DNA of 64,000 nucleotides. Origin: Verrucomicrobiales bacterium. GTDB lineage: Bacteria > Verrucomicrobiota > Verrucomicrobiia > Verrucomicrobiales > V1-33. Location: assembly GCA_031411295.1 (NCBI GenBank), contig JANOAV010000122.1, positions 14,255 to 78,254 of the forward strand, given 5' to 3'. The first letter of the stretch is position 1, and each line of letters opens with the position of its first letter. This document shows, in pieces, positions 30,463 to 57,819 of this stretch. The translations under genes were made by a program, and so were the position numbers. The notes below the pieces were generated by a model. That model did not search any database and was not told the DNA's origin. It saw only the letters and a list, made by a program, of their open reading frames with translations.

Positions 30463-30595
30463 CCGGCCCTTCCCGCACAAGGCGCGGTCACGACCGCCTG
30501 CTCCTAACATTTCGCCAAGAGCCCCGCCTCCCCCGAGCCCTGCGCACGTTTTTTACCAAACATAAACCCCGTCACATCGACACCTAAAATCCAAC

Positions 30596-38928: not shown

Positions 38929-38936
38929 GCCAGCTC

Positions 38937-39416
38937 ATGCAGCTGCCGTCACTAAGGACGCAGCCACCACATGCCCGCAGCTCCAGAACCCTTCCTCCAC
39001 AAGAAGGAAACTACCATGATCTGCTGGCCTACCGGAAGGCAGAGTTGGTCTATGACCTCACCTACCGCTTCACCCAGAAGCACCTTCAGAAAGGCGACCG
39101 CACCGTTGACCAAATGATCCAAGCCGCCCGTTCGGGAAAGCAAAACATCGCAGAAGGCTCCAAGGCTGGCGTCAGCTCCGCTGAAATGGAGTTGAAGCTG
39201 ATGAACGTTGCCAGAGCCAGCCTTGAGGAACTGCTCATCGATTTCAAAGACTACATCCGCGTGCGAGATCACCAGCTCTGGGTTAAGAATTCCAAGGAAG
39301 CGCTGTTTGTCAGGAAACTCGGCTCCAACAAAGACCTGACATTCGAACACGTCCGTGAAGTTTTCGAAACTCGTCCACCAGAAGTCATCGCGAACTTGAG
39401 GGTGTGCTTCAGATAG
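38937..39416 (+). CDS. four-helix-bundle protein (23S rRNA intervening-sequence protein family, with suffix domain)
   Basis: NYHDLLAYRKAELVYDLTYRF ... GDRTVDQMIQAARSGKQNIAEGS ... SLEELLIDFKDYIRVR matches my memory of this family. It lies 8 nt after the NACHT gene stop. Confidence 0.75.
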   Translation: MQLPSLRTQPPHARSSRTLPPQEGNYHDLLAYRKAELVYDLTYRFTQKHLQKGDRTVDQMIQAARSGKQNIAEGSKAGVSSAEMELKLMNVARASLEELLIDFKDYIRVRDHQLWVKNSKEALFVRKLGSNKDLTFEHVREVFETRPPEVIANLRVCFR

Positions 39417-39427
39417 GCCCGATTACG

Positions 39428-42400
39428 TTACTTGAAGATTGGGGCAAAAGTCGTATCCACGGAACCATCTGGATTGAGGCGGACGATGCTGGTGCGGGTT
39501 TGCCCGCCGAAGGTGCTGAAAGTGCCACCACCCAAGACTTGCCCGTTGCCGACTGGCAGGATGGCCTTCACCTCGGTGCCAGAGTTGTTTCCCGTGCCGG
39601 TTTGGTAGGAGGGATCGACGGCACCCGTGGTCGTGCTGAGGCGGGCGATACCCCGATGCGCGGTGGCTGAAGCACCAAAATCACCCCCAATATAGAAGAG
39701 GTTGCTGACATCGTCTGGACGCGATAGATCCGGCCCAGCGAGATCCCGGAAGGCCAGCGCCCCAGTGGAAACGTTGGTGCTGACACTACCAGTTAGGCTG
39801 ATTTTGTGAATTTGAGTGGTCAGGGTTGGTCCGACGGCGGGATTGAACACTCCGTAGAATTGGGTGCCTGCTGCGTTGATGGACAACGCATCCGGGGTTC
39901 CTTGCGTGAAGGTGCTGACTACCGTTGCTGGAGCCAAGGTTTGGACGTTGAAGGAATACAATTTACTGCCGGCTGTAAAGTAAGCCACGTAGGCATTGCC
40001 ACAAGTGAGATCACCCACGTTGACCAAACTCACGTTGCCATTGAGATCGGCAATTTGCACCTGATTCACGATGGCGGTGCTGCTGACATCGATGCGCACG
40101 AGATCATCGGTGCCAGTGGCAATATAGTAAAGCCCGCCGCGCATGAAGGCCAAATTGCCAGGCTTGCTGGTCGGGCTGTAAGTGAAGCTGCCCTGTAGGG
40201 AACCCAGGGCAAGGTGGCTGCCACTGTCCAGGCTATAGCGACCCAGTTTGAAGTTGCTGGCCGTTTCCTCGACGTAATAAAGGTAGCCGTTGGCCTGATC
40301 CCAAGCGATGGCGGACAGTCCGGCAAAGGCGGCTGCTGCGGTGGTCAGGGTGCTGCTCGTGCCAGTTTCGGGATTCACTTGGTAAATGTTCCGGTCCGTT
40401 CCGCCGGCCACGGCGTAGTAGGCGCCAGCATAGGATGCCGCATTCAAATGAAGGTCGGAGGTATCCAGCAACGCGAGGCCCGGGGTCGTCGCGGTGCTGG
40501 TGCCGCTGATGGCTCCGGTCGTGGGGTTCAAGGTCCGAATAATGGTTCGCGCAGCATCACGCGCCACGTAGAGCGGACGACCACTGCCAGCATCAGGTCC
40601 GAAGACGATGGACTCGCAATAATCAGCAGTGCCTGCGGTGGAGGCAATCTGGGTGTAGGTGCTCATGGTCGTGAGATTGAATTTCGCCATGATGCTATTG
40701 CCTCCAGCGATCGCGCTGAAATACATCATGCCCGAGTCGTCCACCGCCAGATCCCCCACGGAAGCAAAGGCCACGGTGTTGGCGGTGAGATCCCGCACCT
40801 TGGTTTGTTCAGTGCCGATCGTCGGACTAGTGGTGATGCGGATCAGATCGTCCGTGCCCGGCTCAATGAAGTAGAGATAGCCGCCCCACCAGGATAAGTT
40901 GGTGGGTTTGACGGTCGAGTTATAATTGTTGCCCGTGGTTAGGTTGTAAACGGCAGTATGGACATTGGTGGCAATCTGCCAGCTCCCTAACGAGTAGCCC
41001 GTGGCGGTGTCCTGGAGATAGAACACGGTGTTCTGCACCGGATCATAGGCCAGCGAGGAGACGTTGAAGGCGGCGGCGTTGTCCACCACTTTGACGGTGG
41101 CTCCCGTAGTTAGGTTCAAGGTGTAAATGTCTTTGTTTCCACCCGTAACAGCATAGACCAGCCCTGCTGGCGGAGTGGGCACGGGGTTGAAATTGCGGGC
41201 GGGGAATTTGAAACCCGGGAGGTCGGTAAAGATGGGCGTGCCCCAGGGTGGAGCGGAGTTATAGCTCCATAGGGTGGTATCCGCACCAGAGGCGACGACC
41301 CGTTGCAGGGTTTTGCTGGTTCCGTTAACGGAGACGAAATCATTGTTCGTCGGACTGATGGCCAGATCCTTGCCCGTCACGGAGGCTTCCGTGCTGTGCA
41401 AGCTGGTGACGACGGCTGTGGTTGGATTAATCACCAACATTTCCCCATCCTTGGAGTCGAAGGCGTAGAGGGTGCCATTCGGATGGAACTCGAGGGCGTC
41501 AACATTGGTCCCCACATTCGTGCCGTTGGTGATATCTCCGACCGCCGACCATGCCGTTAGGTTGTTGGCTCCGTCCACAGACAGTCCGGTGATTTTGAAG
41601 AGTTTGTCCACCGCTGTATCGGTCCCGCGCTGATAAACCGCATAGAGTGAACCGTCCGCGCCCACGGCCAATCCACTGACCGCTTCAACATTAGTGGACG
41701 TGGTGATGGCGGCTCCGTTCATGCTGCTAAGCGCTTGATCCAAATCACCCACGAAGGTTGCGGTCACACTACCGGCGGTCACCGTGTTCAAATCAACCCG
41801 GAAGAGGGGGCGGCCATAGAGGACACCGTTGACGTTGGTGTCTTTGTTGCGCACAAAGTAAGCGTAGTTATCGGTTGTGACCGCAAAGGATTCGATGTCG
41901 CTATCTGCTGCCAGTGCAGTGGCGGCACCGCCACTGCCGGGGTAACGAATATCACCGTAGTTGGTCAGGGTAGGCGCGCCGTCGTAGCCGTTGATCTTGA
42001 GCAACTGCGCGTTGGTATTTTCTCCGATGGCCCAGGCGGGTGGAGCGGGAACAGAGGCGTTGGAGGCGGACGCGAAGTCCGTGAAGGTCAGCTGGGGCTG
42101 CGCATTGGCAGTCACGGAAGCGACTCCGGAACTAAGATTCAACGAATCGATCACGAAGGCGTTGCCACCGGTGCCGTAAAGCTTTCCCGTCAGGAAGCCT
42201 AACGATGGATAGGCGCTGGTCGTGGTGCCGATGGTGGCGAAACCAGTGGCATCGCGCAGGTTGTATTTGTAGAAGGTGTTGACGCCGGCGTTGGTGCTGA
42301 CCCAGTAGAGCACGCCTGAATCATCCAGCGCCAAGTCACCGACAGTATTGAAGGTGGTGCCCAGGCTGATGGTGGATTGACCAGTGATGATGGTAGCCCC

Positions 42401-45400
42401 GGCATCGAGTTGACTCTTCACGATGTTGCTCGTGCCAGGTTGGATGTAGTAGAGGGCACTGTTGTAATAAACCAAGTTCCCAGGATACGCGGTGGCGGTA
42501 GTTGCGATGGTTTTGATATTTCCCAACGTGGCTGAGTGCGTGCTGGTGCCGACGGTATATTTACCAACGTTCCAGGTCGCATTCGCTCCATCTTCCAGAT
42601 AGAAAATATTTCCACTCACACCGTCATAGGCAATAGCGCCGAGATTGTAGGGTGCCGAACTGTTCAGCAGGGCACTAATGCCAGTGGTAGGCTCGAGTCG
42701 ATAGAGATTCTTATTTCCCCCAGTGATGGCAAAGAAATTAGCCGAAGGAGCTGGCAGCGCTGGCTGATTGGGCGTGGAGGTGGCCAAGTCAAGAATTTGG
42801 TTGGCTGGATTGACATTGCCGACCAAAGTGCGAGCCCCTGTAGTAACGTTCAAGGTGTAAAGCTTCTGACTCACTACGGGATCGAATGGAATCCCGTTGA
42901 GTTTACTGCTGTCATAAGTTAGCGCGTAGTAGCGTGGATTCATGGCACTGCTATCGATGATGGTATAACCACCGAACGTGCGCATATCGAAGCGAGCCAA
43001 CACGTTGGCATCTTCATAGGAAATGTAGGCTTGGCCGAGGTCGTCAATCGTGAAGGCCCCAACCGTCGAACCAACGGTGGCGTTGCCGGCCACGTCCGCC
43101 ACGCGAACTTGATCCGCGATGACATAGGGACTGGTGAAAGTGATCTTGAAGAGATCGTCGGTGCCTGTGGCAATGTAATAAAGGGCTCCATTGAAGTGAG
43201 TTAGGTTATGGGCCCGCGTGCCCGTTGGTCGATGGGTGCCGATGAGTTTTAGATCCGTCTGGAAGAGCGCATCGCGCACGGCGCTGTGGGTATCGGTGCG
43301 GAGATCGTAAGCGTAGAGGCGCTGTGGATTGTCCGTGGTTACGGTGTAGTAAACCAGCGCGTTGGTCTGGTCGAAGGCGACCGCCTCCACATCACCCTTG
43401 GCTTGCCAAGTTAGGAAATAGGCGCGGGCAGTCGAGAGATCCGTCCGCAGAATGGCCGGGGTATTGGTGATGCTGGTAAAGGCATAGCCACTGCCCGGCA
43501 AGTAAGGGCCGGAGGTTGAGGATATGTCGGTAAAGGCAATTTTCGGCAACACTGGGGCGACAAAGGTCGGAGCACCAGTGGTGATGTCGAGGGAGAACGT
43601 TTTGTAAGGATCATCACCGCGCACCCCATAGAGGGAGCCCGAGGAATTGAACACAAGGCTGGACCAAGGGATGTTGGGATTGTTCGAGATCAGAGTATAA
43701 CCACCCATGATCGTGAGATCGTAGCGGGCCAGCTTGGCCGTCGAGGCGAAATAGAGCATGCCATTGCTGTCGATCGTGGCTGCAGTGACGGCTCCCTGCG
43801 AGGCGTCGTTATTGAGATCGGCCACTTTGTGAAGGCTGTCGATCCCGATGGGGGTGAGGTCAATTTTGATCAAATCATCGGTATTGGGCGCGATGGTGTA
43901 GAGACCACCGTTGGCGATAAAGAGATTTTCCGGCTGCGCAGTGATCGGCGTGTGATTGGTGCCGCCGGGTGCGGTGAGATTGAAATTGTAAATCGTGTGA
44001 ACATTGCCCGTGAGATCATAGCGGCCGACGCGCCAGTTGCTGGCGGCGGCTTCCACATAGTAAAGTTTGTTGGTTGCGCTATCGAAGCCCAGAGACTGAA
44101 CATTGAACGGAGCGCTCGTGATGGCCATGTTAGAGCCCGTGGCGGGATCAATCCGGTAAATGGTGGAGGTGCCATCGGCTGCGAAATAGCCAGTAACCGC
44201 AGGCGGTGGCGTGACCGCTAACCCAACAAAGCTAAGGGCGGATGGGGTGCTGAGGCCCCAGAGGTTGAAGTAATTGAAGTAAGCAGTGTCATTCGCGTTG
44301 CCAGTGACGACTTTGGTGATCGTGGAGTTATTCAACGCAGTGACGAGGTCGGTGTCGGAGAGATGGACGGCCAGCGGACCCGCGGAAGCTTCGGTGCTGT
44401 GCATGGCCACGGTGAGGGATCCGGTGGTGGCATTGACTTTATAAACGCCGAGGTCATCCGTATCACTGACATAAGCCTGCCCCGTGCTGTCGATGGCCAG
44501 ACCGCGGGCATTCCCGGCGTTCGTGGCACCATTTTGCAAGGTTCCGACCAAGCCCACCGCGAGGTTGCCTGCGCTCGAAGGAGTCAGACTGATGATTCGG
44601 CATAAGGCATCGGCGGTGGCGCCATTGCCAATCCGCACCACCAAGCGCAGGCTCCCGTCCGCGCCTGGGGCCAGGCCGGAGACCACTTCATTGGAGGTGA
44701 GCGGAGTCACTCCGATGGCCGTGCGCAGGCCGGGACCGAGGTCGCCCACCAAGGATGCCACCACGGGACCAGAACTTGGCAGGCTGTTCAGGTTGAGGGT
44801 AAACAACGGCCGTTCGTAAGTCACCCCGGCAATGACCGTGGCCGCACTATTTACGAAGTAGAGTCGGTTGGAAGCATCCACCGTCATGGCGCCAAGAACT
44901 GACGCAGCATTGGTGAAGAGCGTGGTGGCAGCACCATCCCGATAAGCCAGGGCTCCGAAGTCGGTGCTAGCAACGTTGCCGCCATTATTTTTATAGTTAC
45001 GGAAACGCAGCAGATGTGGATCTGGGGCTGCGGAGTATCCGGCAATGGCCCAGAGATCGTCGCTGGCAGCGGGAGGAGTGTTAGCCGAGGGGCCAGCGAA
45101 GTCGGTGAAGGCCAGCGCAGGGGAGGAGTTCACAGAGGAGATGAGGGAGGCGTTGCCTTGGCTCAACTGGTCAACTTGGAGGGAGCCAGCGGCATAAAGA
45201 TTACTTTGATAAAGGCCTAAAGCCGGCTCGGCTCGGGGCAGGGTGCCCACGACGCCAAAGCCAGTGCTCCCAACGATGTCGTAACGATAAAGCGATGGGG
45301 TTCCTACCGCAGGGGTGTTCGTGAAGAGCAACATCCCAGCATCCGTGGCGGAAATATCGCCAGGGTCCGCAAAGGTGACTGCTCCACCAGTTAGGCTGGC

Positions 45401-48400: not shown

Positions 48401-51400
48401 CAGGTTGCGGGGCTGGCTGGAGGCTTGGTAAGCATAGACCGAATCATTCAGCGTAGCGCGGATCGCATGGGTATTGGTGGCGGGCACGTATTCGCCCAAA
48501 CGCCAGTTGCTGGAGGCCTGCTCGATGTAGTAAATGCGCGTCTCATCGGTATTTACCGCCACGCTCTCGAGCGGGAAGGGCGCGTTACTAACCCAGTCAA
48601 TGTTGTTGCCGTTGCCGCCGTCGAATTTGTAGATGCTGGTGTTGTTACCGCCGACGGCATATAGGTTCGGAACCACGCCGATGAGGGTGATGGCGTCTGA
48701 CAAATCGACGATGGGGTTGGCTTCGGTGCTATTGGACACGAAAGTGAGTGCCCCCGTGGTCTTGTTGACGCTGGAGAATTTCTTCCCGAGATCCCCCACC
48801 ACACTAGCGGGGCGGGTGGCATACATGGCCTGATCGGATGACCGAATTGCCAAACCTTGGTAAGTGCGGGGAGCCGCAGTGCTTACGGTGGAGAAGGCAC
48901 TGCCGTCCGGCATCATGAATTTGCCATAGAAGTCCGACGTCGTTTCCCCGAAGTAAGCCAACCCGAGGTTATTGACCGTCAGGCCACCAATCTGCCAAGT
49001 GCTCACATTGTTGCTCAGGTCCTTGATTTTAACCTGAGAGGAAATGGTATTACCGCTGACAGTAATCTTCACGAGATCATCCGTGCCATCAGCGATGTAG
49101 TAAAGGCCATCTTGGAAGTAAACCAGGTTCTGCGCACGAGTGCCAGGGGTGTAGGCATAGGTGGCCGCTGCCCGCAGGTCTCCCATGAGGAAGTGCTGGC
49201 CGCTGGAGACCACATAGCGGGCCAGCTTGAATTCTCCCGCCGCGGCTCCACCCGTATAATAAATGATCTGGGTGGAGGCATCGTAAGCCACGGCATAGGG
49301 CTGGAATTTGGCGATATCGGTGAGGGACGTCACTTCCCCGGTATCAGGGTTAGCCCGGAAGAGGCTGAGTTTAGTATCTGCCACTGCGATCAGATCACCT
49401 GGTGCGGTGGGATCAGGGAGCGCTGGAGGGGCCGTGCCTGCGATATCATGGAAGACGCGGTTAGAGGTGTAAGTGGCCGTGATGGCGCCAGCTCCCGTGA
49501 GTGGATCCACCACTTTACTCTTGGTGTTCTGAGCCGTGTCTACCCCGTAGAGTAGGCTGTTCGCGGCATACACCAAGGCCTGCCAATTGCTGGGCGGGCT
49601 GTTGGAAATGACGGCGTAATTGCTCTTGGTCAGCAAATTGTATTTCGCAAACATCGTGGAGGACGCGAAATACAACGTGCCGTCTGGGGCTACCGTGGCG
49701 GCATTAACCGCGCCCTGACTCACGCCACCGTTAAGCTTGGCGAACGGTCCCACCATGGCGATGGCGTTGCCATCAATTTCCACGCGTCGAAGATTGTCCG
49801 TGTTGTTATCGATGAAGAGCAACTGTCCGCCAAAGAAAATCAGGTGATTGGGTTGGGACGTGGCTGGAGTCCAGCCAGCGGCCACATTTCCCAAATGATT
49901 TGTCAGGGTGGTATGCACCCCGGTCGTTGGATTATAACGACCCACGCGCCAGTTGCTGGTAGCCTTTTCCACATAGTAAACCAAGTTATTCACCTTATCA
50001 TAGGCGACGGCGCCAGGCACGAACGGACATGAGATCGGTTCCCGGGTGTAACGACCGGTATCTGGATCGAGCTTGTAGATCCGCTGCGAGCCATTGGAGA
50101 CCGCATAGTAAAGGCCTGCTGGGGATGGAGGAGGAACGGTGGACCCTGCCGCAAAATCGGTAAAGGTGAGATTGGGTTGGCTAGTTGATACCTGGACGGG
50201 AGTTCCGGGCGCGATTTCGGTATCGATGGAATCGTTGGCAGCCCCATTGCCGCCAGCGCCGTAGAGCACATCATTGAGCACGCCCAAGGCCGGGTAGGCG
50301 CGGCTCGCGGTTCCCAGATTCGTGAGGAAGCTGTCGTTCACCAATTCAAACTGCCAGAGCGTATGGGTGGAGCCGTTCGTATTCACCCAGTAGAGCACCC
50401 CGGAATTATCTAAAGCCAAGTCCCCAATGGTGTTCATCGTTGTGCCGAGCGCGCGATTTACTTGGGTCGAGACCGCCGTCGCCCCAGCATTAAGGCCGAC
50501 TTGGACCAGATTTTGCGAGGATGCATGGATGTAATAAAGGGAGTTATTATAAAAGACCAAATTGCCCGGATAGCTACTCGGCCGGTTGGCCCCAATGAGC
50601 TTCAGATCACCCAGGGAGGCTGTATGCGTATTCGTGGCCACAAGATACTTTCCCACCCGCCAAGTGCTGCTGCCACCATCTTCCAGATAGTAAACTGCAC
50701 CTGCCGCAGCATCGTAAGCAATGGCTCCGAGGTTGAAGGGCGCGCTATTGTTGATCATTTGGTGCAGGCCAGTCACGGGGTCCAAGCGGTAAATGTTCTT
50801 GTTTCCGCCAGTCACAGCAAAGAAGTTCGCACTGGGGCTGGGCAGGACGATGGGCGCTACCACCCCGGAAGTGTCATTGAAGACGGTGGAAGGGAAGGAA
50901 GGGACGCTGGTAGCTTCGGCCCCAGCAGCATTCAGTTTGTAGATGGTGGCATCACCCGATCGGTTGACGTAGAGCGTATCGTTGGGCAGGCGGGTAATGG
51001 CGGCATAGAAGGGAGTGGCTGGCGTGCTGGCGAGCGCGCGCACTACAGTATAGCCGCTGAGGGTGGCGAGGTTGAACGTGGCCAGCACGCTTTCCCCCGC
51101 AATCCACAGCCGTCCATCGGCACTCGTGCTGAGGTCGCCCATGATGCCAAAGTTGGCCGTGCCATTGGTGATATCGGCAATTTTCTCCTGGTTCGAAACG
51201 ACGCCACCGCTGAGATCAATCCGCACCAAATCATCCGTGCCATTGGCCACATAATAGAGATTCCCTGCGAAGTAGGTCATCCCAGTGAGGCGGCCGGAGG
51301 GAGTGTAATTCCAGGTGCCGGATGAAGGGGTGGCCAGACTGCCTAGCAACGTATGCGAGTCGGTGGCGAGACTGTATTTTCCCAGGCGAAAGTTGGTCGA

Positions 51401-54058
51401 ACTGTCCTCAGTATAGTAAACGATGGCGTTGGCACTGTCGTAAGCTACGGTGGCAATGGGGAACAAGGCGGTGGTTGTCACGCTGGCGACGCCCCCCGTA
51501 TTCGGATCAAAGCGGAAGATTGTGTTGGTGCCGTTACTGGCATAGCAATCCGTGGTGATGGCCATGGTGAAGTTAGCGGAAGCTACCGCACTGGTGTCAA
51601 ACCAATTCATGTATCCAGAGGGAGCGTAACACCGCGCCTTCACATTCTGGGTGGCCACAATGATGATCGGAGTCCCGTCCCAGAGCGTAGCCCCAGGATT
51701 TGGTTCGCCAGCGGCATTGCCAGGGTCCACCCCGTCCTTCCGGTAATAAATCCGGGCCCCAGCGGGAACTTTACCGGATGCCACATCTAATTCCAGGGTG
51801 ACCCCGCCGGCGGGATCTCCTCCGCTGGCAGGGGTAAAGATGGGCGGCGGCAAGGCGATTTTGCTGATGTTGACGGTTTTGGTAGTCACTGTCGAATCCA
51901 CCAAGTAGGGGGCCGAGGCGGCGGCATCGGCCACATATTTGACGATTACTGAACTGTTGGAACCAAAGTTTACCAGCGTCACTGGAACATTGTCTCCGGC
52001 GTAGCCATTGGTGAAGGAGGCCCCTTGAGTGCGACTGCCGGATGACAACGGATCTGTGCCATCCAAGGTCCAATAGACGCGGAATGTAGAATTATTCTCG
52101 TAAACATTCGGAATCGACGCGCCATTGACCAACGTGATTTGTCCCGGAGTTGTCAGCGACACGGCTGGACTGCCCGGGGCCATGGCCCCCCCCAGTTGGG
52201 AGTAGGAATACGCGCCAGGGAAATTGTCCGTTAGTTGCAGGGTGACCGCCGTGGGTTGGTAGGTCGCAAGCGCGTGCTCCGAATCACGATACTGCAGTAG
52301 ATCGGTGGAATAAATATAGGCATTAATCGTGGTGCCCGGAGGGGTGATGATGGGTCCATTATAGGTCAGACTTGTGGCCGGTGCCGAAGAGAGAGTATAT
52401 TTGATCTGAGTGTAGGTGGCATCATTGGGGTTGTTGATGGTCACGGAGAGGGGGTAAAGCGAGATGTCTAAGACTGGCGGCGGTGGCGTGAAGGTCGGAG
52501 GATCTGCCTGCGGGGCGCACGAGTAAGTGGCACTCGTTAGAGCACTAGTGGAGAACCAAGATTTCAAGCCCGAAGGAGGGTAAGCGCGACAAGTGACGGT
52601 GACGGGAGTGGTGAGGGTGGGCGTGACCGTGAAGGTGCTCCCGGTCCACAGGGTGGAGCCAGCCACCGGTTCTCCGCTGGCGTTGTTTCCAGGGTCTGTG
52701 CCATCGGTGCGGTAGTAGATCCGCACGCCTGCCGGCAACACCCCGGCGGAGGTATTGAGACTCAGGGTTACAGTGGCATCCACAGCTACGACCCCAGCAT
52801 CCGGTGCGATCAGCGGCGGCTGCAAAGTGGTTTTTTGGACGGTGATAGTTTTGTTATAAACGGCTGAACTTGTCACAGTTAGCGGCTTGGCAGATCCAGC
52901 GTAAAGGTTGAGGCTAAGAGCGGGAGCGCTGCCGAAGTCTGCCAGTGTTAGAGGGAGGAACATCCCCGGATAGCCATTGGTAAATGGCACCCCGGCGTGC
53001 CGGGTGCCGGAAGTGGTTGGATCACTGCCATCCAGAGTCCAATAAACGTTGAACACCGAAGAATTCTGATACGCTAGTGGAATGGTGCCGGCACTTGCCA
53101 GCGTGACTGTTCCGGGAGGAGTCAGCTCTTCCGCTCCCCTGACCAATGGTCCACCCAAGCTAGCATACGTAACCGTTGACGGGAACGTATTGCCAAGAAC
53201 CAAAGGTTCTGGATTTGGAATATAGGATACGGAGGCCGTCGGGCTGTCGGTAAAAGTTTCCGGCTCCAAACTGATGCGCTTGGCCACCAGCACATCGCCG
53301 GGATCCACCGTAATCGGGCCAGTATAGGGATAGAAGGAGGAGTCATTATTCTTCTTATAGACGGTAGTCCACTGGTCGGTGCTGGGGGGACCTACCATCA
53401 CCAGCAAGGGGTAGGAAAGCAGCACTAACTGGGGTGGCGGCGGCATGAAGACGGGTGGCGTGAGTTGGGTCGTTTCTGGGGTGGTCGGGGTGGGGGAATT
53501 CACCACCACGGAGGGCCGATTCGTGGGGGCTGGCTTGGGGCTCCGCGTCGTATTGGTGTAGGCCCAGACCCAGCCAGCATCCTCGTTGAGTGCCATCATC
53601 GGCTTGCGAATCTCCGTGGCTTGGTTGGTGGGAATGGCGGATTCGGAGAGGGTAAACTCTTTAATGGCATCGGTCGCATCGTCTGTGATCACAAAATTGT
53701 GCTGGGGGCCATTCCAGACTGCGAACGGCGGAGTATCACCTTCCTGTGCACTAATAAAACTTAAGCGTTGGTCGATCATGCTACCTCGCAGCGCTGCCAA
53801 TTTGCCGCCATTGGAGGCCACGGTCTTTAATTTAGCGATCATCCCTGCCGCATCGGTTACCCCATCAAAACTTCCTCCGCTGATGGAGTAGAGACGGATC
53901 GAGTTATTGATCGTGACCACATCCTGTTCCAGTTTGGCACGCTTCGTATCCTCCCGGACGTTTTTCATAACAACGTAGGCACCAACGGAAAGAATGGCGA
54001 TGATGGCCACCACCATCGTCACCTCGATTAGGGTATAACCAGGGGAACGCGACTTCAT
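39428..54058 (-). CDS. giant (4876 aa) surface protein with a prepilin-type N-terminal cleavage/methylation signal, two chitobiase/hexosaminidase-C-like tandem units, about 16 beta-propeller-like modules and C-terminal delta-60-like repeats
   Basis: Uninterrupted 14,631-nt ORF. N-terminus MKSRSPG/YTLIEVTMVVAIIAIL. Recurring IYRLDPxTG...NLGAIAYD...YY.E...W..G.Y...T..H...G...NL.....LYYI..GTDDL..I blocks. C-terminus GGTFSTFGGQTRTSIVRLNPDGSVDTTF. Confidence 0.9.
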   Translation of the reverse strand: MKSRSPGYTLIEVTMVVAIIAILSVGAYVVMKNVREDTKRAKLEQDVVTINNSIRLYSISGGSFDGVTDAAGMIAKLKTVASNGGKLAALRGSMIDQRLSFISAQEGDTPPFAVWNGPQHNFVITDDATDAIKEFTLSESAIPTNQATEIRKPMMALNEDAGWVWAYTNTTRSPKPAPTNRPSVVVNSPTPTTPETTQLTPPVFMPPPPQLVLLSYPLLVMVGPPSTDQWTTVYKKNNDSSFYPYTGPITVDPGDVLVAKRISLEPETFTDSPTASVSYIPNPEPLVLGNTFPSTVTYASLGGPLVRGAEELTPPGTVTLASAGTIPLAYQNSSVFNVYWTLDGSDPTTSGTRHAGVPFTNGYPGMFLPLTLADFGSAPALSLNLYAGSAKPLTVTSSAVYNKTITVQKTTLQPPLIAPDAGVVAVDATVTLSLNTSAGVLPAGVRIYYRTDGTDPGNNASGEPVAGSTLWTGSTFTVTPTLTTPVTVTCRAYPPSGLKSWFSTSALTSATYSCAPQADPPTFTPPPPVLDISLYPLSVTINNPNDATYTQIKYTLSSAPATSLTYNGPIITPPGTTINAYIYSTDLLQYRDSEHALATYQPTAVTLQLTDNFPGAYSYSQLGGAMAPGSPAVSLTTPGQITLVNGASIPNVYENNSTFRVYWTLDGTDPLSSGSRTQGASFTNGYAGDNVPVTLVNFGSNSSVIVKYVADAAASAPYLVDSTVTTKTVNISKIALPPPIFTPASGGDPAGGVTLELDVASGKVPAGARIYYRKDGVDPGNAAGEPNPGATLWDGTPIIIVATQNVKARCYAPSGYMNWFDTSAVASANFTMAITTDCYASNGTNTIFRFDPNTGGVASVTTTALFPIATVAYDSANAIVYYTEDSSTNFRLGKYSLATDSHTLLGSLATPSSGTWNYTPSGRLTGMTYFAGNLYYVANGTDDLVRIDLSGGVVSNQEKIADITNGTANFGIMGDLSTSADGRLWIAGESVLATFNLATLSGYTVVRALASTPATPFYAAITRLPNDTLYVNRSGDATIYKLNAAGAEATSVPSFPSTVFNDTSGVVAPIVLPSPSANFFAVTGGNKNIYRLDPVTGLHQMINNSAPFNLGAIAYDAAAGAVYYLEDGGSSTWRVGKYLVATNTHTASLGDLKLIGANRPSSYPGNLVFYNNSLYYIHASSQNLVQVGLNAGATAVSTQVNRALGTTMNTIGDLALDNSGVLYWVNTNGSTHTLWQFELVNDSFLTNLGTASRAYPALGVLNDVLYGAGGNGAANDSIDTEIAPGTPVQVSTSQPNLTFTDFAAGSTVPPPSPAGLYYAVSNGSQRIYKLDPDTGRYTREPISCPFVPGAVAYDKVNNLVYYVEKATSNWRVGRYNPTTGVHTTLTNHLGNVAAGWTPATSQPNHLIFFGGQLLFIDNNTDNLRRVEIDGNAIAMVGPFAKLNGGVSQGAVNAATVAPDGTLYFASSTMFAKYNLLTKSNYAVISNSPPSNWQALVYAANSLLYGVDTAQNTKSKVVDPLTGAGAITATYTSNRVFHDIAGTAPPALPDPTAPGDLIAVADTKLSLFRANPDTGEVTSLTDIAKFQPYAVAYDASTQIIYYTGGAAAGEFKLARYVVSSGQHFLMGDLRAAATYAYTPGTRAQNLVYFQDGLYYIADGTDDLVKITVSGNTISSQVKIKDLSNNVSTWQIGGLTVNNLGLAYFGETTSDFYGKFMMPDGSAFSTVSTAAPRTYQGLAIRSSDQAMYATRPASVVGDLGKKFSSVNKTTGALTFVSNSTEANPIVDLSDAITLIGVVPNLYAVGGNNTSIYKFDGGNGNNIDWVSNAPFPLESVAVNTDETRIYYIEQASSNWRLGEYVPATNTHAIRATLNDSVYAYQASSQPRNLMFLNGRLYYIAEGTDDLIAIEFADSGTPTVKTQSKVADLNNNVALTNVGDIATDTSGTMFISASNAFATWNYQTQSSFSIKTAAPATYWTGLVTTAAGKLLGVSNAEPGKLYEVSKTTGAGTFVASFTPSVSFFDFAAPQPNVAIDTTGLTYFISAAGTSIYRLDLATGKEALVTSQVPLTPSAIAMDHVNGLLYTAGDDLASTGDIQLSVFNLSTGSNTLLGSLKAGGLAYTPTAAAHNLAYQNGFLYYVAKNTDDLVKVTVGASSITAASKVWDIGVAAQDWDTLAIAPDSSAYLSTRDTDYLARINLQLLTGPQILKTSKGSDEGADYAALTFGASGQMIGALQHINTKGYRVNPFNGATTYLWDGSYNGGVGLAISDFTSPYSDAPITSGSQFATDGGPNIFRVSPTTGTVTALTTAAAFNLNALAYDAASQVIYYTENATPNWRLAKYDLATNTHTILGNLDEPSVAGTWNYNPTARPSNLSFFDGNLYYIHSNTDDLVRIDLLGNAIANQNQVADLTNGASNLGYIGDITTTSTGLLWIASENELATFNLTTLSGYTAKRTTTTASPGLEAYYPGLQRDLWNTIYADRQGVDTKIYQLDAAGTETTNVATNPPKGFVDYAGEENAPALPTATSLFYAINGGTNIYQLNPVTGVHKIINRAAPYNLGALAYDAVSNSLFYLEESASATWRVGRYNLTADIHTATLGDLKQVGSTRPSNFPGNLVYYNQALYYIHPGTSNLVKVQLNSALDTVIEQTAISLGTNFVSIGDLALNDSGLLYFVNTSASIPTLYRYNLQTGSGLTAMGVAPRNYPGLGFLGGTLYGTGANGAIIESLNPTTAASTLVATAQPNISFIDFASGQSAAAPMTTTFFATTNGSPNIYRLDPTTGVNVLLNGSAPYNLGALAYDATRNYLYYLQDTLLSNGAWNLGRFDVTTGLHSSVGDIKSVTNGFSPSMVPKNLAYYNGALYFVVPGRDDLLKVQLDASGVSITGISQVASLTGGAVTFADPGDISATDAGMLLFTNTPAVGTPSLYRYDIVGSTGFGVVGTLPRAEPALGLYQSNLYAAGSLQVDQLSQGNASLISSVNSSPALAFTDFAGPSANTPPAASDDLWAIAGYSAAPDPHLLRFRNYKNNGGNVASTDFGALAYRDGAATTLFTNAASVLGAMTVDASNRLYFVNSAATVIAGVTYERPLFTLNLNSLPSSGPVVASLVGDLGPGLRTAIGVTPLTSNEVVSGLAPGADGSLRLVVRIGNGATADALCRIISLTPSSAGNLAVGLVGTLQNGATNAGNARGLAIDSTGQAYVSDTDDLGVYKVNATTGSLTVAMHSTEASAGPLAVHLSDTDLVTALNNSTITKVVTGNANDTAYFNYFNLWGLSTPSALSFVGLAVTPPPAVTGYFAADGTSTIYRIDPATGSNMAITSAPFNVQSLGFDSATNKLYYVEAAASNWRVGRYDLTGNVHTIYNFNLTAPGGTNHTPITAQPENLFIANGGLYTIAPNTDDLIKIDLTPIGIDSLHKVADLNNDASQGAVTAATIDSNGMLYFASTAKLARYDLTIMGGYTLISNNPNIPWSSLVFNSSGSLYGVRGDDPYKTFSLDITTGAPTFVAPVLPKIAFTDISSTSGPYLPGSGYAFTSITNTPAILRTDLSTARAYFLTWQAKGDVEAVAFDQTNALVYYTVTTDNPQRLYAYDLRTDTHSAVRDALFQTDLKLIGTHRPTGTRAHNLTHFNGALYYIATGTDDLFKITFTSPYVIADQVRVADVAGNATVGSTVGAFTIDDLGQAYISYEDANVLARFDMRTFGGYTIIDSSAMNPRYYALTYDSSKLNGIPFDPVVSQKLYTLNVTTGARTLVGNVNPANQILDLATSTPNQPALPAPSANFFAITGGNKNLYRLEPTTGISALLNSSAPYNLGAIAYDGVSGNIFYLEDGANATWNVGKYTVGTSTHSATLGNIKTIATTATAYPGNLVYYNSALYYIQPGTSNIVKSQLDAGATIITGQSTISLGTTFNTVGDLALDDSGVLYWVSTNAGVNTFYKYNLRDATGFATIGTTTSAYPSLGFLTGKLYGTGGNAFVIDSLNLSSGVASVTANAQPQLTFTDFASASNASVPAPPAWAIGENTNAQLLKINGYDGAPTLTNYGDIRYPGSGGAATALAADSDIESFAVTTDNYAYFVRNKDTNVNGVLYGRPLFRVDLNTVTAGSVTATFVGDLDQALSSMNGAAITTSTNVEAVSGLAVGADGSLYAVYQRGTDTAVDKLFKITGLSVDGANNLTAWSAVGDITNGTNVGTNVDALEFHPNGTLYAFDSKDGEMLVINPTTAVVTSLHSTEASVTGKDLAISPTNNDFVSVNGTSKTLQRVVASGADTTLWSYNSAPPWGTPIFTDLPGFKFPARNFNPVPTPPAGLVYAVTGGNKDIYTLNLTTGATVKVVDNAAAFNVSSLAYDPVQNTVFYLQDTATGYSLGSWQIATNVHTAVYNLTTGNNYNSTVKPTNLSWWGGYLYFIEPGTDDLIRITTSPTIGTEQTKVRDLTANTVAFASVGDLAVDDSGMMYFSAIAGGNSIMAKFNLTTMSTYTQIASTAGTADYCESIVFGPDAGSGRPLYVARDAARTIIRTLNPTTGAISGTSTATTPGLALLDTSDLHLNAASYAGAYYAVAGGTDRNIYQVNPETGTSSTLTTAAAAFAGLSAIAWDQANGYLYYVEETASNFKLGRYSLDSGSHLALGSLQGSFTYSPTSKPGNLAFMRGGLYYIATGTDDLVRIDVSSTAIVNQVQIADLNGNVSLVNVGDLTCGNAYVAYFTAGSKLYSFNVQTLAPATVVSTFTQGTPDALSINAAGTQFYGVFNPAVGPTLTTQIHKISLTGSVSTNVSTGALAFRDLAGPDLSRPDDVSNLFYIGGDFGASATAHRGIARLSTTTGAVDPSYQTGTGNNSGTEVKAILPVGNGQVLGGGTFSTFGGQTRTSIVRLNPDGSVDTTFAPIFK
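41165..42035 (-). repeat. divergent 'type W' module, copy 2, inside the giant ORF
   Basis: PAWAIGENTNAQLLKI ... YGRPLFRVDLNT ... VSGLAVGADGSL ... LHSTEASVTGKDLAI. Boundaries are approximate. Confidence 0.55.
44215..45065 (-). repeat. divergent 'type W' module, copy 1, inside the giant ORF
   Basis: DDLWAIAGYSAAPDPHLLRF ... YERPLFTLNLNS ... VSGLAPGADGSL ... MHSTEASAGPLAV. Paralogous to 41165-42035. Boundaries are approximate. Confidence 0.55.
51560..53458 (-). repeat. tandem duplication of a 315-320 aa unit inside the giant ORF (coding repeat)
   Basis: Unit 1 starts PPVFMPPPPQLVLLSYPLLV ... VYWTLDGSDPTTSG ... VRIYYRTDGTDPG. Unit 2 starts PPTFTPPPPVLDISLYPLSV ... VYWTLDGTDPLSSG ... ARIYYRKDGVDPG. 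Boundaries are approximate. Confidence 0.7.
53966..54058 (-). other. prepilin-type N-terminal cleavage/methylation domain of the giant ORF
   Basis: Gly7 precedes the cleavage site, Glu is at +5 (YTLIE), and a hydrophobic helix of about 20 aa follows. Confidence 0.8.
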
Positions 54059-54285
54059 AATCTAAAAATTTACTGCAATTATGAAAATTATAACGAACTT
54101 TGTGATTCTGAAAAGGGATTTCTTCAAAAATTTGGAACGGAAGAATATCAATCCTTCTGGTCAGTCTGGAAGGGGGGCGCTCTTTATCAAAAGTGCGACA
54201 GCTCGGACGCAACGAAGTCAGGTGCTCGGCAAACGAGCGATGAAGAGCGGTGCGAAAGCCAAGCTCTTATGCCAGGAGGAACGTC

Positions 54286-55662: not shown

Positions 55663-55668
55663 AAGATT

Positions 55669-57297: not shown

Positions 57298-57819
57298 GCA
57301 GAGCGGGTGGCTTGACAATTATAACACATATAATAATTACTAATAAATAAATTCTAGAACATCTTAGTCAATCTGACTAGTCCAAAATGGTAAAATTTGC
57401 ACGGATGATGGGTCAGAATGACAGGTTAGGGGCACCCCAGCCAGCTTAAACTGCGCCAGATCCAGTCATTTCAAGATCATTTTGAAGCCCCGCGCATGAT
57501 TTTGGTGTGCCCCGGAAAGGTGCAGCGTTGGGCAGCAACGACTGTGTGGAGCGCGGTCTGGCCGATGCTCCTCCGCCCGCCCCGTAGGGTGCCATCTCAT
57601 CAGCCTTTGGGTGGTCATAACTGACGGAGCCTGGTCCATGCCATCCTTGCTTTGGAAGTGGTTATTAGATCCACCTTTGCTATTTTTGCTTGAGATCCCG
57701 CTTACCTCCGCCCATAGACATGACGAGCCTGACTATGGGCAGGCGGGTGATGCGGCAAGTTCCACGCATACCAGCAATTGAGGATTTAGGGAACGGCTCC
57801 CATTTTTCATCCCTCTATT

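What the first reader, a model, noticed from the sequence alone, without database searches (positions are those of the whole stretch)
39428..54058. 4876-aa protein carrying a type IV pilin/pseudopilin-style N-terminus
Seen: one open frame of 14,631 nt. The N-terminus MKSRSPG-YTLIEVTMVVAIIAILSVGAYVV has Gly at -1 and Glu at +5, which is the prepilin peptidase cleavage/methylation signature. Next come two 315-320 aa units with YWTLDG(S/T)DP and IYYR.DG.DPG motifs (chitobiase/hexosaminidase C-terminal-like). About 16 modules of 240-290 aa follow, then delta-60-like C-terminal repeats. Established knowledge: PVC bacteria encode many proteins with prepilin-type N-termini, but pilins and pseudopilins are normally 15-40 kDa. 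Inference: a cargo of about 500 kDa on a pilin-type anchor implies either a tip or terminal subunit of a fibre, or use of the pilin helix simply as a membrane anchor for a giant adhesin. Neither is well described.
Basis: partly seen in the sequence, partly recalled or inferred. Interest (0 to 1): 0.68.

Follow-up and report, generated by a model that had tools for sequence, protein, structure and literature searches.

The report
Giant pilin-headed beta-propeller surface protein
A freshwater-sediment Verrucomicrobiales bacterium encodes an intact, conserved 511-kDa protein that joins a genuine type IV pilin head to a stalk and 16 beta-propellers; it belongs to an apparently undescribed family of giant "modular pilins" and is probably shown on a pilus-like fibre as an adhesin.

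Summary
It is not an assembly artefact. The longest exact internal DNA repeat is 16 nt. Independent contigs reproduce the sequence. Orthologues from two other assemblies are collinear (78% identity over 4874 aa with 2 gap positions; 68% over 3843 aa), with dN/dS about 0.13.

Architecture:
- class III (prepilin) signal peptide and a small pilin-like head
- a Pro/Thr-rich linker
- 2 x 3 FnIII/Ig-like domains
- 14 five-bladed propellers (DUF6923/olfactomedin-like) plus 2 NHL/PknD-like propellers
- a two-blade delta-60 cap

A profile of the head matches 22 solved pilins and pseudopilins, each aligned from its mature residue 1. Glu+5 is invariant in 20/20 relatives.

The protein belongs to a Verrucomicrobial family with the same head and stalk and 0 to 19 propellers (600-6386 aa). 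In two distant lineages a mid-sized member heads an operon with a PilT-family ATPase, PilMNO-sized genes and another prepilin; in one of them a secretin gene lies beside it.

Best reading: a giant modular minor pilin displayed on a type IV filament. Cleavage, filament incorporation and export are not shown, and the 64-kb window holds no pilus machinery. It is a new variant of a known kind.

The parts
39428..54058 (-). Whole gene: 4876-aa ORF. The mature protein would be 4869 aa, 510.7 kDa, pI 4.7.
   Evidence: collinear orthologues; dN/dS 0.13
54087..54114 (-). Promoter-like site (TTTTCA-16-TATAAT, 10/12) about 30 nt upstream of the ATG, in an AT-rich 227-bp spacer after pelG. This is a consensus match only.
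54038..54058 (-). Leader peptide MKSRSPG (residues 1-7, net charge +2), ending in Gly at -1.
   Evidence: PF07963 and TIGR02532
53639..54037 (-). Pilin module, residues 8-140. It has Tyr+1, Glu+5 and a hydrophobic alpha1-N. The model shows a continuous helix to about residue 59, a second helix at 70-82, and a 4-stranded sheet at 99-137.
   Evidence: AF2 secondary structure, pLDDT 77-86 in most 10-residue blocks of residues 41-140 (range 52-86). The head profile hits 22 solved pilins/pseudopilins aligned from their residue 1. Invariant E12, D46, N51, G61, G62, D96, R98, F135 across 17 relatives.
53444..53638 (-). Linker, residues about 141-205. It contains the invariant W163-x-W165 motif and then a Pro/Thr-rich tract. 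Predicted to be disordered.
   Evidence: pLDDT below 50 for residues 139-193; sequence; alignment
52499..53443 (-). First trio of FnIII/Ig-like beta-sandwich domains (residues about 206-520; motifs YWTLDGSDP and IYYRTDGTDPG). All family members share this trio.
   Evidence: Foldseek top hits are tandem FnIII triplets; CHB_HEX_C_1 and Fn3_assoc are significant in a homologue
51557..52498 (-). Second, duplicated trio of FnIII/Ig-like domains (residues about 521-834). It is present in this orthologue group and not in most relatives.
45047..51556 (-). Nine P-type beta-propeller modules of about 240 aa each (residues 835-3004).
   Evidence: AF2 of module 1076-1316: pLDDT 91.4, pTM 0.89, 20 strands. 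Foldseek hits to YWTD/kelch propellers. Pfam DUF6923 70.6 bits.
44198..45046 (-). N-type propeller module 1 (residues 3005-3287), NHL/PknD-like.
42029..44197 (-). Three P-type propeller modules (residues 3288-4010).
41168..42028 (-). N-type propeller module 2 (residues 4011-4297).
39674..41167 (-). Two P-type propeller modules (residues 4298-4795).
39431..39673 (-). C-terminal cap of about two delta-60/DUF5122 blades (residues 4796-4876). The 600-aa relatives P0001 and P0002 and the giants P0007, P0008, P0011 and P0012 end in the same cap.

Best explanation
The gene encodes a giant modular minor type IV pilin.

Shown by the data: the ORF is real, intact and under purifying selection. Its first 60-90 residues or so are homologous to type IV pilins and pseudopilins. 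The rest consists of a disordered linker, six FnIII-like domains, 16 beta-propellers and a two-blade delta-60 cap.

Inferred mechanism:
1. The protein inserts into the cytoplasmic membrane through its class III signal peptide.
2. A prepilin peptidase cuts after Gly7 and methylates Tyr+1.
3. The small pilin head is taken up by a type IV filament machine encoded elsewhere in the genome. That machine would be of the kind seen next to smaller family members: a PilT-family ATPase, PilMNO-like proteins and further prepilins in both lineages examined, plus a secretin in one of them.
4. A 510-kDa appendage cannot be packed at every about 1-nm rise of a filament. The subunit would therefore sit at or near the tip, or be incorporated only sparsely.
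5. The domains are all small (propellers about 4-4.5 nm, FnIII about 2.5 nm) and joined by short linkers. They could pass a secretin channel one after another.
6. The result would be a flexible chain of about 100 nm made of ligand-binding propellers on the cell surface. It would act as an adhesin or capture line for polysaccharide, particles or other cells, possibly retractable.
For: - Reality of the gene. Orthologue P0007 is 77.7% identical over 4876/4874 aa with 2 gap positions. The L002 orthologue is 68% identical and collinear over 3843 aa. dN/dS is 0.13, with pN 0.13-0.34 against pS 0.63-0.83 in every region.
- Pilin identity of the head: PF07963 and TIGR02532 are above threshold. A profile of 17 heads hits 22 solved pilins/pseudopilins (geopilin 4e-8; S. 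sanguinis PilE1 1e-7 over 80 residues; GspG 4e-7; PilA, PpdD, MshA, TcpA). Most of these are mature chains, and they align from their own residue 1 or 2 at the predicted +1. The AF2 topology is a long alpha1, a helix in the alpha-beta loop, and a 4-stranded sheet.
- Conservation of the signal: 20/20 relatives at 24-40% identity keep Glu+5, Gly or Ala at -1, and an aromatic or aliphatic +1.
- Link to filament machinery: in L005 (Terrimicrobiaceae) the 877-aa member lies between a secretin gene (PF00263, 125 bits) and a PilT/PilU-family ATPase (TIGR01420, 259 bits). Four PilMNOP-sized genes with TM segments follow, then a 358-aa prepilin. The same member->PilT->o289->o194->o178->prepilin order recurs in L025, a marine lineage, at 34-54% identity.
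- Cargo: all 16 modules are beta-propellers, a fold typical of extracellular binding. The module also occurs widely in proteins with N-termini that look like Sec or lipoprotein signals.
- Precedent: modular pilins such as PilB and CofB are predicted or proposed to sit at the pilus tip, and PilB acts as an adhesin (PMC8179133).
Against: - No prepilin peptidase, assembly ATPase, platform protein, secretin or other pilin is present in the 64-kb window.
- None lies within 10 kb of three other giants, whose neighbours all differ.
- Cleavage, methylation, filament incorporation and surface exposure were not tested.
- Foldseek on the N-terminal model returned only FnIII triplets in its top 50. The pilin fold of residues 60-140 therefore rests on AF2 topology with a 6-sequence alignment (whole-model pLDDT 68).
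- No pilin of comparable size has been shown to pass a secretin. The largest multi-domain example noted in the 2021 survey had 860 residues.
- PF07963 on the full-length protein is only 0.1 bit above its threshold.
Confidence: 0.55

Rival explanations
1. Pseudopilus-driven self-secretion. The pilin head engages a T2SS-like machine only transiently. A short pseudopilus with the giant at its tip pushes the propeller chain through the secretin. The protein then stays tethered at the outer-membrane pore or is released, and no long pilus forms.
For: - The head profile hits GspG about as well as true pilins. Weak GspG, GspH and GspJ N-terminal matches appear.
- The secretin next to the L005 member scores best against GspD.
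- In Omnitrophota, giant genes are reported next to T2SS/T4P-like loci and small class III signal-peptide genes (bioRxiv 10.1101/2023.11.21.568195).
Against: - The ATPase conserved in the operon is of the PilT/PilU type (259 bits), not GspE (120 bits). That points to a dynamic pilus.
- No GspC, GspL, GspF or GspE was found beside any member.
- This model differs from the best explanation mainly in filament length and cannot be separated from it in silico.
Confidence: 0.2
2. Signal-anchor only. The class III peptide serves as an inner-membrane anchor, cleaved or not. The protein is never polymerised, and the propeller chain works in the periplasm or reaches the surface by another route.
For: - No filament genes lie near any of the four giant genes examined.
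- Passage of 510 kDa through a secretin has no precedent.
Against: - Glu+5 and the whole globular head are invariant or conserved across 17-20 relatives at 24-40% identity. A simple anchor would not need either.
- Smaller members are embedded in a conserved filament-type operon.
- An extended length of roughly 100 nm far exceeds the width of a periplasm (inference).
- The cargo domains are typical extracellular binding folds.
Confidence: 0.15
3. Assembly or annotation artefact. The long ORF is a chimaera of collapsed or mis-joined repeat modules, or a pseudogene remnant.
For: - The source is a short-read metagenome.
- The Logan assembly breaks once inside the gene, at 49679.
- One X2 contig shows a 4533-nt skip, 46123->50657.
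Against: - Modules share only 22-52% amino-acid identity, and the longest exact DNA repeat is 16 nt.
- Two independent assemblies from other samples give collinear orthologues across the break, one with the same length to within 2 residues.
- dN/dS is 0.13 along the whole length.
- The X2 joint rests on a 21-nt side in a single contig.
Confidence: 0.03

Closest known systems
Modular type IV pilins (S. sanguinis PilB and PilC; concept of Raynaud et al. 2021, PMC8179133)
   Same: [quoted passage not shown] These pilins are predicted to be tip-exposed, and PilB acts as an adhesin.
   Different: - PilB is 50 kDa with one vWA module. The most extreme multi-domain case in that survey had 860 residues. 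This protein has 4876 residues, 22 globular cargo domains and a two-blade C-terminal cap.
- The host here is a diderm, so the cargo must also cross an outer membrane.
- No sequence similarity was found beyond alpha1.
Type IVb minor pilins CofB (ETEC) and TcpB (V. cholerae)
   Same: A pilin domain, a flexible linker and C-terminal beta-domains. CofB forms a trimer predicted to sit at the pilus tip (discussion section), and TcpB initiates pilus assembly according to the title and abstract of PMC5207764 (listed).
   Different: - They are roughly ten times smaller (my recollection).
- They are encoded inside their pilus operons.
- They were not among the PDB sequences matched by the head profile, so the resemblance is architectural and not demonstrated homology.
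PilY1/PilC tip adhesin of type IVa pili
   Same: A large beta-propeller-containing adhesin presented at the pilus tip, with variable binding modules.
   Different: PilY1 is not a pilin. It has no class III signal peptide and docks on minor pilins through its C-terminal propeller. Here the pilin module is part of the same polypeptide. No PilY1-domain match appeared in the Pfam scan.
DUF6923 / olfactomedin-like and NHL/PknD-like beta-propeller repeats of bacterial surface proteins
   Same: - P modules match PF21959 (70.6 bits, 6 stretches) and, summed, PF02191.
- The N-module profile matches PknD-derived 'Pizza' and NHL propellers.
- 5222 representative proteins carry the P module, and many of the top 150 have Sec- or lipoprotein-type N-termini by eye.
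   Different: Among the hits with intact N-termini, only the best-scoring subgroup is fused to a pilin head.
Giant genes of Omnitrophota and other PVC bacteria (West-Roberts et al. 2023 preprint)
   Same: Very large repetitive surface proteins in the PVC supergroup, associated with T2SS/T4P-like loci and class III signal-peptide genes.
   Different: In that study the class III signal peptides are on small neighbouring genes and the giants exceed 30,000 aa. Here the class III peptide is the N-terminus of the giant itself.

Membership tests
Type IV pilin / pseudopilin (class III signal peptide protein) | Short, positively charged leader ending in Gly (rarely Ala) at -1 | tested here: met
   MKSRSPG, 7 residues, net charge +2. 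Relatives have Gly (12) or Ala (8) at -1.
Type IV pilin / pseudopilin (class III signal peptide protein) | About 20 hydrophobic residues after the cleavage site, with Glu at +5 | tested here: met
   YTLIEVTMVVAIIAILSVGAYVV. Glu+5 is invariant in 20/20 relatives.
Type IV pilin / pseudopilin (class III signal peptide protein) | Match to curated N-terminal models above their thresholds | tested here: met
   PF07963: 21.3 bits (cut-off 21.2) on the whole protein and 25.8 on the isolated head. TIGR02532: 21.9 bits (cut-off 16.3). 16/17 family heads hit PF07963.
Type IV pilin / pseudopilin (class III signal peptide protein) | Homology of alpha1 to solved pilins in the correct register | tested here: met
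   The head profile hits 22 solved pilins/pseudopilins, E from 4e-8 down the list. The mature chains among them align from their residue 1 or 2 at profile position 9-11.
Type IV pilin / pseudopilin (class III signal peptide protein) | Globular head with the pilin alpha/beta-roll (alpha1-C packed on an antiparallel sheet) | tested here: inconclusive
   The AF2 topology fits: helix 10-59, helix 70-82, four strands 99-137, pLDDT 77-86 in most 10-residue blocks of 41-140 (range 52-86). The alignment had only 6 sequences, and Foldseek's top 50 were all FnIII hits to the rest of the model.
Type IV pilin / pseudopilin (class III signal peptide protein) | Cleavage and N-methylation by a prepilin peptidase | not testable with these tools
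   This needs proteomics or N-terminal sequencing. No peptidase gene is present in the window.
Type IV pilin / pseudopilin (class III signal peptide protein) | Incorporation into a filament built by a type IV filament machine | not testable with these tools
   The evidence is indirect only: a conserved operon of smaller family members with a PilT-family ATPase, PilMNO-like genes and a prepilin in two lineages, plus a secretin gene in L005 only.
Type IV pilin / pseudopilin (class III signal peptide protein) | Genomic linkage to filament assembly genes | tested here: not met
   None in the 64-kb window, nor within 10 kb of giants P0007, P0008 and P0012. The feature is met only for mid-sized paralogues in L005 and L025. 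It is common in pilins but not defining, because minor pilin genes are often dispersed.
Modular pilin (sensu Raynaud et al. 2021) | N-terminal pilin module fused through a linker to domain(s) not specific to pilus biology | tested here: met
   Head 8-140, disordered linker 139-193, then FnIII-like domains, beta-propellers and DUF5122. Definition.
PilY1/PilC tip adhesin | C-terminal PilY1-type beta-propeller and no class III signal peptide | tested here: not met
   No PilY1 family match in the Pfam scan, and the protein has a class III signal peptide.
DUF6923 repeat (PF21959) beta-propeller | Score above the Pfam gathering threshold; all-beta propeller fold | tested here: met
   70.6 bits against 27, with 6 stretches. 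AF2 module: pLDDT 91.4, 20 strands consistent with 5 blades. Foldseek probability 1.00 to YWTD/kelch propellers, TM about 0.6.
Olfactomedin-like domain (PF02191) | An individual domain match above threshold | tested here: inconclusive
   The whole-protein sum is 64.8 bits (cut-off 23.9), but no single stretch passes on its own. No olfactomedin appears in the Foldseek top 50.
delta-60 repeat / DUF5122 propeller | Repeat match above threshold; enough blades for a closed propeller | tested here: inconclusive
   PF17164 scores 42.1 bits (cut-off 27) at 4838-4871. TIGR02608 scores 27.1, below its cut-off of 76.5. Only about two blades are present, too few for a propeller on their own.

The most novel reading that the evidence does not exclude
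Verrucomicrobia have a dedicated type IV filament system whose first operon gene is a head-plus-FnIII-stalk pilin. Dispersed giant paralogues with up to 19 propellers and 6386 aa are loaded onto the same machine in trans. A folded propeller chain of 0.5-0.7 MDa and about 100 nm would be threaded domain by domain through a secretin. [quoted passage not shown] The conserved two-blade delta-60 cap might close into a six-bladed propeller by trimerisation, as two-blade lectins do, or might dock on the DUF5122 proteins encoded next to short members. Trimerisation would match the three-fold arrangement of tip minor pilins.
Probability: 0.3. Interest if true: 0.8.

Novelty: new variant of a known kind. 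Interest (0 to 1): 0.6.

Why it matters
Type IV filaments are thought to gain new functions when modules are grafted onto minor pilins. The experimentally characterised examples carry one to three extra domains. This family has a conserved pilin head and carries 0 to 19 propellers, and in this gene the cargo outweighs the carrier by more than 30 to 1.

If these proteins really are filament subunits, three consequences follow:
- They set a new upper bound for what a secretin and pilus machine can export and display.
- They give a natural size series (600 to 6386 aa with the same head) for testing how cargo size limits pilus assembly.
- They point to a so far uncharacterised filament operon in Verrucomicrobia, a phylum important in the turnover of polysaccharides in soil, freshwater and the gut.

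If the head turns out to be only an anchor, that would show a second use of class III signal peptides. It would help explain the puzzling abundance of prepilin-type proteins in PVC bacteria.

Tried and rejected
- A full-length homology search timed out.
- An exact-sequence lookup of the giant found nothing on record.
The 3-sequence alignment worked.
- Word-indexed searches with the module profile and the head profile found almost nothing useful. The index-free HMMER scan was what revealed the family.
- Foldseek on the 530-residue N-terminal model was dominated by FnIII triplets and said nothing about the head.
- P0159 looked like a stand-alone head of 196 aa. It turned out to be a frameshifted fragment in a noisy long-read contig.
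- pelF-pelG as functional partners (a giant adhesin coupled to Pel polysaccharide) was rejected as a conserved link. Orthologues in L002 and L022 and the other giants have entirely different neighbours, and the gene has its own promoter-like site.
- The 1458-aa and 159-aa downstream genes as partners was rejected. They are convergent, have no homologues beside the L002 orthologue, and gave no PADLOC hit.
- P0010 (6386 aa) was too long for a context lookup.
- No RNA run could be listed for the gene, so expression is untested.
- The PDB sequence search with the whole protein gave only a marginal PknD hit. That hit was later strengthened with a profile of the N module.
Full report

The ORF listing and translate show one ATG-initiated ORF at 39428..54058. 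It has 4876 codons and no internal stop, and it lies on the minus strand. An in-frame stop two codons upstream of the ATG fixes the start. This is the only class III signal-peptide motif found in six-frame translation of the whole window.

- The N-terminus is MKSRSPG|YTLIEVTMVV..., with Gly at -1 and Glu at +5.
- YWTLDG(S/T)DP lies at residues 339 and 662, and IYYR.DG.DPG at 447 and 770.
- There are 14 modules of about 240 aa and 2 modules of about 285 aa.
- A DUF5122/delta-60 match closes the C-terminus.

The mature protein would be 4869 aa, 510.7 kDa, with pI 4.7. It has only 8 Cys and is rich in Thr, Ala, Gly, Ser and Asn.

**2. Is it an assembly artefact or a dead gene?**

No.
- The modules are old duplicates. 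Pairwise amino-acid identity is 22-52% (median 29%). Internal DNA repeats are 60-81% alike over at most 76 nt, and the longest exact repeat is 16 nt. Short-read collapse is therefore not expected.
- Logan contigs of a freshwater-sediment metagenome run (X1) reproduce 38900-54400 with zero differences. There is one break, at 49679.
- Two independent assemblies from other samples carry collinear orthologues that span this break.
  - P0007 (ENA ERZ26165887, 147-kb contig) has 4874 aa and is 77.7% identical end to end, with only 2 gap positions.
  - L002 is from a Verrucomicrobiales MAG. Its copy is 68% identical and collinear over all 3843 residues before its contig ends.
- Against L002, dN/dS is 0.13. 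Synonymous sites are near saturation. Every region, from the leader to module 12, shows pN 0.13-0.34 against pS 0.63-0.83.

The gene is intact, and both its length and its sequence are maintained by selection.

**3. Anatomy**

(a) Residues 1-7 form a basic leader. Residues 8-30 are hydrophobic and carry Glu+5. PF07963 and TIGR02532 pass their thresholds.

(b) AlphaFold2 on residues 1-530, with five homologues as the alignment, gave:
- an essentially continuous helix over residues 10-59;
- a second helix over 70-82;
- four strands over 99-137.

Most 10-residue blocks between residues 41 and 140 have pLDDT 77-86 (range 52-86). This is the topology of a small pilin or pseudopilin head. No model was obtained for the head alone, so the fold could not be searched separately.

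(c) Residues about 139-193 are predicted to be disordered. They end in a Pro/Thr-rich tract.

(d) Two trios of beta-sandwich domains follow. Foldseek matches them to tandem FnIII triplets. A homologue scores significantly for CHB_HEX_C_1 and Fn3_assoc.

(e) The P module was modelled with its 14 paralogues as the alignment. The result was pLDDT 91.4, pTM 0.89 and 20 beta-strands, consistent with five four-stranded blades. Foldseek matches YWTD and kelch propellers at probability 1.00 and TM about 0.6. Pfam calls the module DUF6923.

(f) A profile of the two N modules matches PknD-derived 'Pizza' and NHL propellers at 1e-7.

(g) The last 81 residues are about two delta-60 blades.

The module order is P9-N-P3-N-P2.

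**4. The head is a true pilin N-terminus**

A profile of 17 family heads was searched against all PDB sequences. It returned 22 type IV pilins and pseudopilins:
- Geobacter PilA-N, 4e-8;
- S. sanguinis PilE1, 1e-7, aligned over about 80 residues;
- GspG, 4e-7;
- Pseudomonas and Neisseria pilins, PpdD, MshA, TcpA and CofA.

Only four unrelated hits appeared, all with E of 0.12 or worse. Most of the pilin entries are mature chains. These aligned with their own residue 1 or 2 on the predicted +1 position.

Across 20 relatives with intact N-termini, at only 24-40% identity:
- Glu+5 is invariant;
- position -1 is Gly (12) or Ala (8);
- position +1 is Phe, Tyr, Leu or Ile.

The globular part of the head also has invariant positions: D46, N51, G61, G62, D96, R98, F135 and W163-x-W165. 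Conservation of this kind argues for a specific interaction. A simple membrane anchor would not need it.

**5. It belongs to a family**

Residues 1-514 find five proteins of 603-808 aa with the same head and stalk but different C-termini: two delta-60 blades, a 'choice-of-anchor A'/pAdhesive_15 domain, or other beta-rich regions.

An index-free HMMER scan of 1.84 billion representative proteins with the P-module profile found 5222 hits. The best hits are all proteins with many modules:

| Protein | Length (aa) | Modules |
|---|---|---|
| P0007 | 4874 | 16 |
| P0008 | 4652 | 14 |
| P0009 | 5087 | 15 |
| P0010 | 6386 | 19 |
| P0012 | 4743 | 16 |
| P0013 | 4848 | 12 |
| Smaller 'P-N-P' forms | 1487-2247 | 3 |

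Every one of these that has an intact N-terminus carries the same class III peptide and head. Lower-scoring hits carry the propeller behind what look by eye like Sec or lipoprotein signals. The propeller is therefore a common extracellular module, and one subgroup of it has been fused to the pilin head.

N modules recur about every 1000 residues. This suggests the family grew by duplication of N-P-P-P blocks.

Locus titles place members in Verrucomicrobiales, Terrimicrobiaceae and marine Verrucomicrobia. P0012 lies near BtubA/B-type tubulin genes.

**6. Genomic context**

In the window, pelG (54286-55662) and a pelF-like GT4 gene (55669-57318) lie upstream on the same strand. A 227-bp AT-rich spacer with a promoter-like site separates them from the giant. 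Downstream, a 159-aa four-helix ORF and a 1458-aa P-loop protein converge on it.

Nothing in the 64 kb encodes a prepilin peptidase or any filament component. None of the neighbours is conserved beside the orthologues or the other giants. The giant genes therefore stand alone.

Mid-sized members are different.
- In L005 (Terrimicrobiaceae, 247-kb contig) the 877-aa member is flanked by a divergent secretin gene (PF00263, 125 bits). Downstream on the same strand lie:
  - a PilT/PilU-family ATPase (TIGR01420, 259 bits);
  - four genes of 289, 194, 178 and 212 aa with TM or signal segments, one weakly GspM-like;
  - a 358-aa prepilin;
  - a 477-aa membrane protein.
- In L025 (a 1.09-Mb contig of the marine lineage that also gave L004) tblastn finds the same order. 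The member is followed by PilT-like (48-54% identity), o289, o194, o178 and the prepilin homologue.

The same gene order in two distant lineages is the strongest available evidence that the head-bearing family belongs to a type IV filament system.

The short members P0001 and P0002 sit in a different conserved trio. Their partners are a VKOR/thioredoxin-type protein and an 1120-1140-aa SdrD_B+DUF5122 protein.

**7. Most likely mechanism**

Shown by the data: this is a real, selected gene whose N-terminus is homologous to pilins and whose remainder is a string of small beta domains.

Inferred: insertion into the cytoplasmic membrane; cleavage after Gly7 and methylation of Tyr+1 by a prepilin peptidase encoded elsewhere; and uptake of the head by a filament machine of the L005/L025 kind. 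Placement would be at or near the tip, because a 510-kDa appendage cannot be repeated at each about 1-nm rise of a filament.

Each cargo domain is small. From general structural knowledge, a five-bladed propeller is about 4-4.5 nm and an FnIII domain about 2.5 x 3.5 nm. Open secretin channels are about 6-7 nm. A beads-on-a-string chain could therefore pass one domain at a time. Sixteen propellers, six FnIII domains and a 55-residue linker would give roughly 100 nm when extended (my estimate).

Propellers of this kind typically bind ligands. A multivalent adhesin or capture line for glycans, particles or cells is therefore the most economical function. I give this reading 0.55.

Rivals:
- Pseudopilus-driven self-secretion without a long pilus (0.2).
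- Use of the class III peptide as a mere anchor (0.15). This is disfavoured by the conserved Glu+5 and head and by the operon context, but it is not excluded.
- Artefact (0.03).

**8. Comparison with what is known**

The concept exists. Raynaud et al. (PMC8179133) defined modular pilins. They found more than 1,200 of them in 264 architectures and predicted tip exposure. The most extreme multi-domain case they noted had 860 residues. They discuss CofB and GspK as larger minor pilins, and TcpB is a further example. PilY1 is the non-pilin analogue.

This protein meets the definition of a modular pilin: class III peptide, pilin-type alpha1, a linker, and unrelated domains. It is not a PilY1, and no homology to CofB or TcpB was detected.

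My literature searches found no description of this family or of any pilin of comparable size. The nearest published theme is the association of Omnitrophota giant genes with T2SS/T4P-like loci and small class III genes.

**9. Verdict**

- The finding is a new variant of a known kind, and one member of an apparently undescribed family.
- The untested steps are processing, filament incorporation, export and expression. No RNA run could be listed.

Noticed in passing
window 54286-57318 (- strand): A pelF-like GT4 (DUF3492 + Glycos_transf_1) and pelG (PelG, 442 bits) lie as an isolated pair directly upstream of the giant gene. No pelA-E is present in the window: the next gene upstream is a + strand ketoacyl synthase. 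The adjacency is also seen in Logan contig L001, but not beside the orthologues in L002 and L022.
   Followed up: partly
window 34552-38928 (+) and 38937-39416 (+): A 1458-aa protein with a P-loop (GAPGTGKTG) near its N-terminus has no Pfam or PADLOC hit. A 159-aa four-helix-bundle ORF follows it (23S_rRNA_IVP, 31 bits, below threshold). Both converge on the 3' end of the giant gene. The pair looks like a STAND-type NTPase, possibly a defence gene, but nothing confirmed that.
   Followed up: partly
window 46123 -> 50657 (run X2): One Logan contig of a second sediment metagenome joins 46123 to 50657, skipping 4533 nt (1511 codons, in frame). Only 21 nt lie on the shorter side, and the join is out of register between modules. 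It is probably a de Bruijn chimaera between paralogous modules, but it could be a strain variant with fewer modules.
   Followed up: no
L005 7488-18421; L025 10001-18404: A conserved Verrucomicrobial operon: large head-bearing pilin, then a PilT-family ATPase, then three or four small membrane proteins, then a 307-358-aa prepilin. L005 also has a divergent secretin gene. No PilB/GspE-type ATPase or PilC/GspF platform gene is visible in the stretches examined.
   Followed up: partly
L016/L017 10001-16940; L019/L020: The 600-aa family members that end in two DUF5122 blades are always followed by a VKOR + DUF1573/thioredoxin-type gene and an 1120-1140-aa SdrD_B + DUF5122 protein. The two-blade cap might dock on a DUF5122 partner.
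   Followed up: no
giant residues 4796-4876 (window 39431-39673); C-termini of P0001, P0002, P0007, P0008, P0011, P0012: The same cap of about 80 residues (two delta-60 blades) ends both the 600-aa and the 4600-4900-aa family members. It is as if the propeller array had been inserted between stalk and cap. Two blades cannot close a propeller alone, so oligomerisation or a partner is implied.
   Followed up: no
L023/L024 32867-34232: Two adjacent Tubulin/Tubulin_C genes (BtubA/B-like) lie 9 kb from the giant P0012, which suggests a Prosthecobacter-like host. The same two samples also hold the short member P0001.
   Followed up: no
L005 1237-5952; L021 3515-8145: Bat/MoxR-type aerotolerance genes (BatA/VWA, BatD, TPR; or MoxR, DUF58, VWA) lie a few kb upstream of a family member in two unrelated loci. 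This may be lineage synteny or chance.
   Followed up: no
window 30584-32725 (-) vs 30596-33406 (+): A 713-aa ORF with no family match lies entirely opposite the pyruvate phosphate dikinase gene (PEP-utilizers_C, 268 bits). It is a shadow ORF and not a gene.
   Followed up: yes
P0009, P0010, P0014, P0015, P0021, P0005; L003, L004, L005 members: A large minority of the family has Ala rather than Gly at -1 of the class III peptide (8 of the 20 scanned; also by eye in the L003, L004 and L005 members). This is unusual for bacterial pilins and may reflect the specificity of the Verrucomicrobial peptidase.
   Followed up: no
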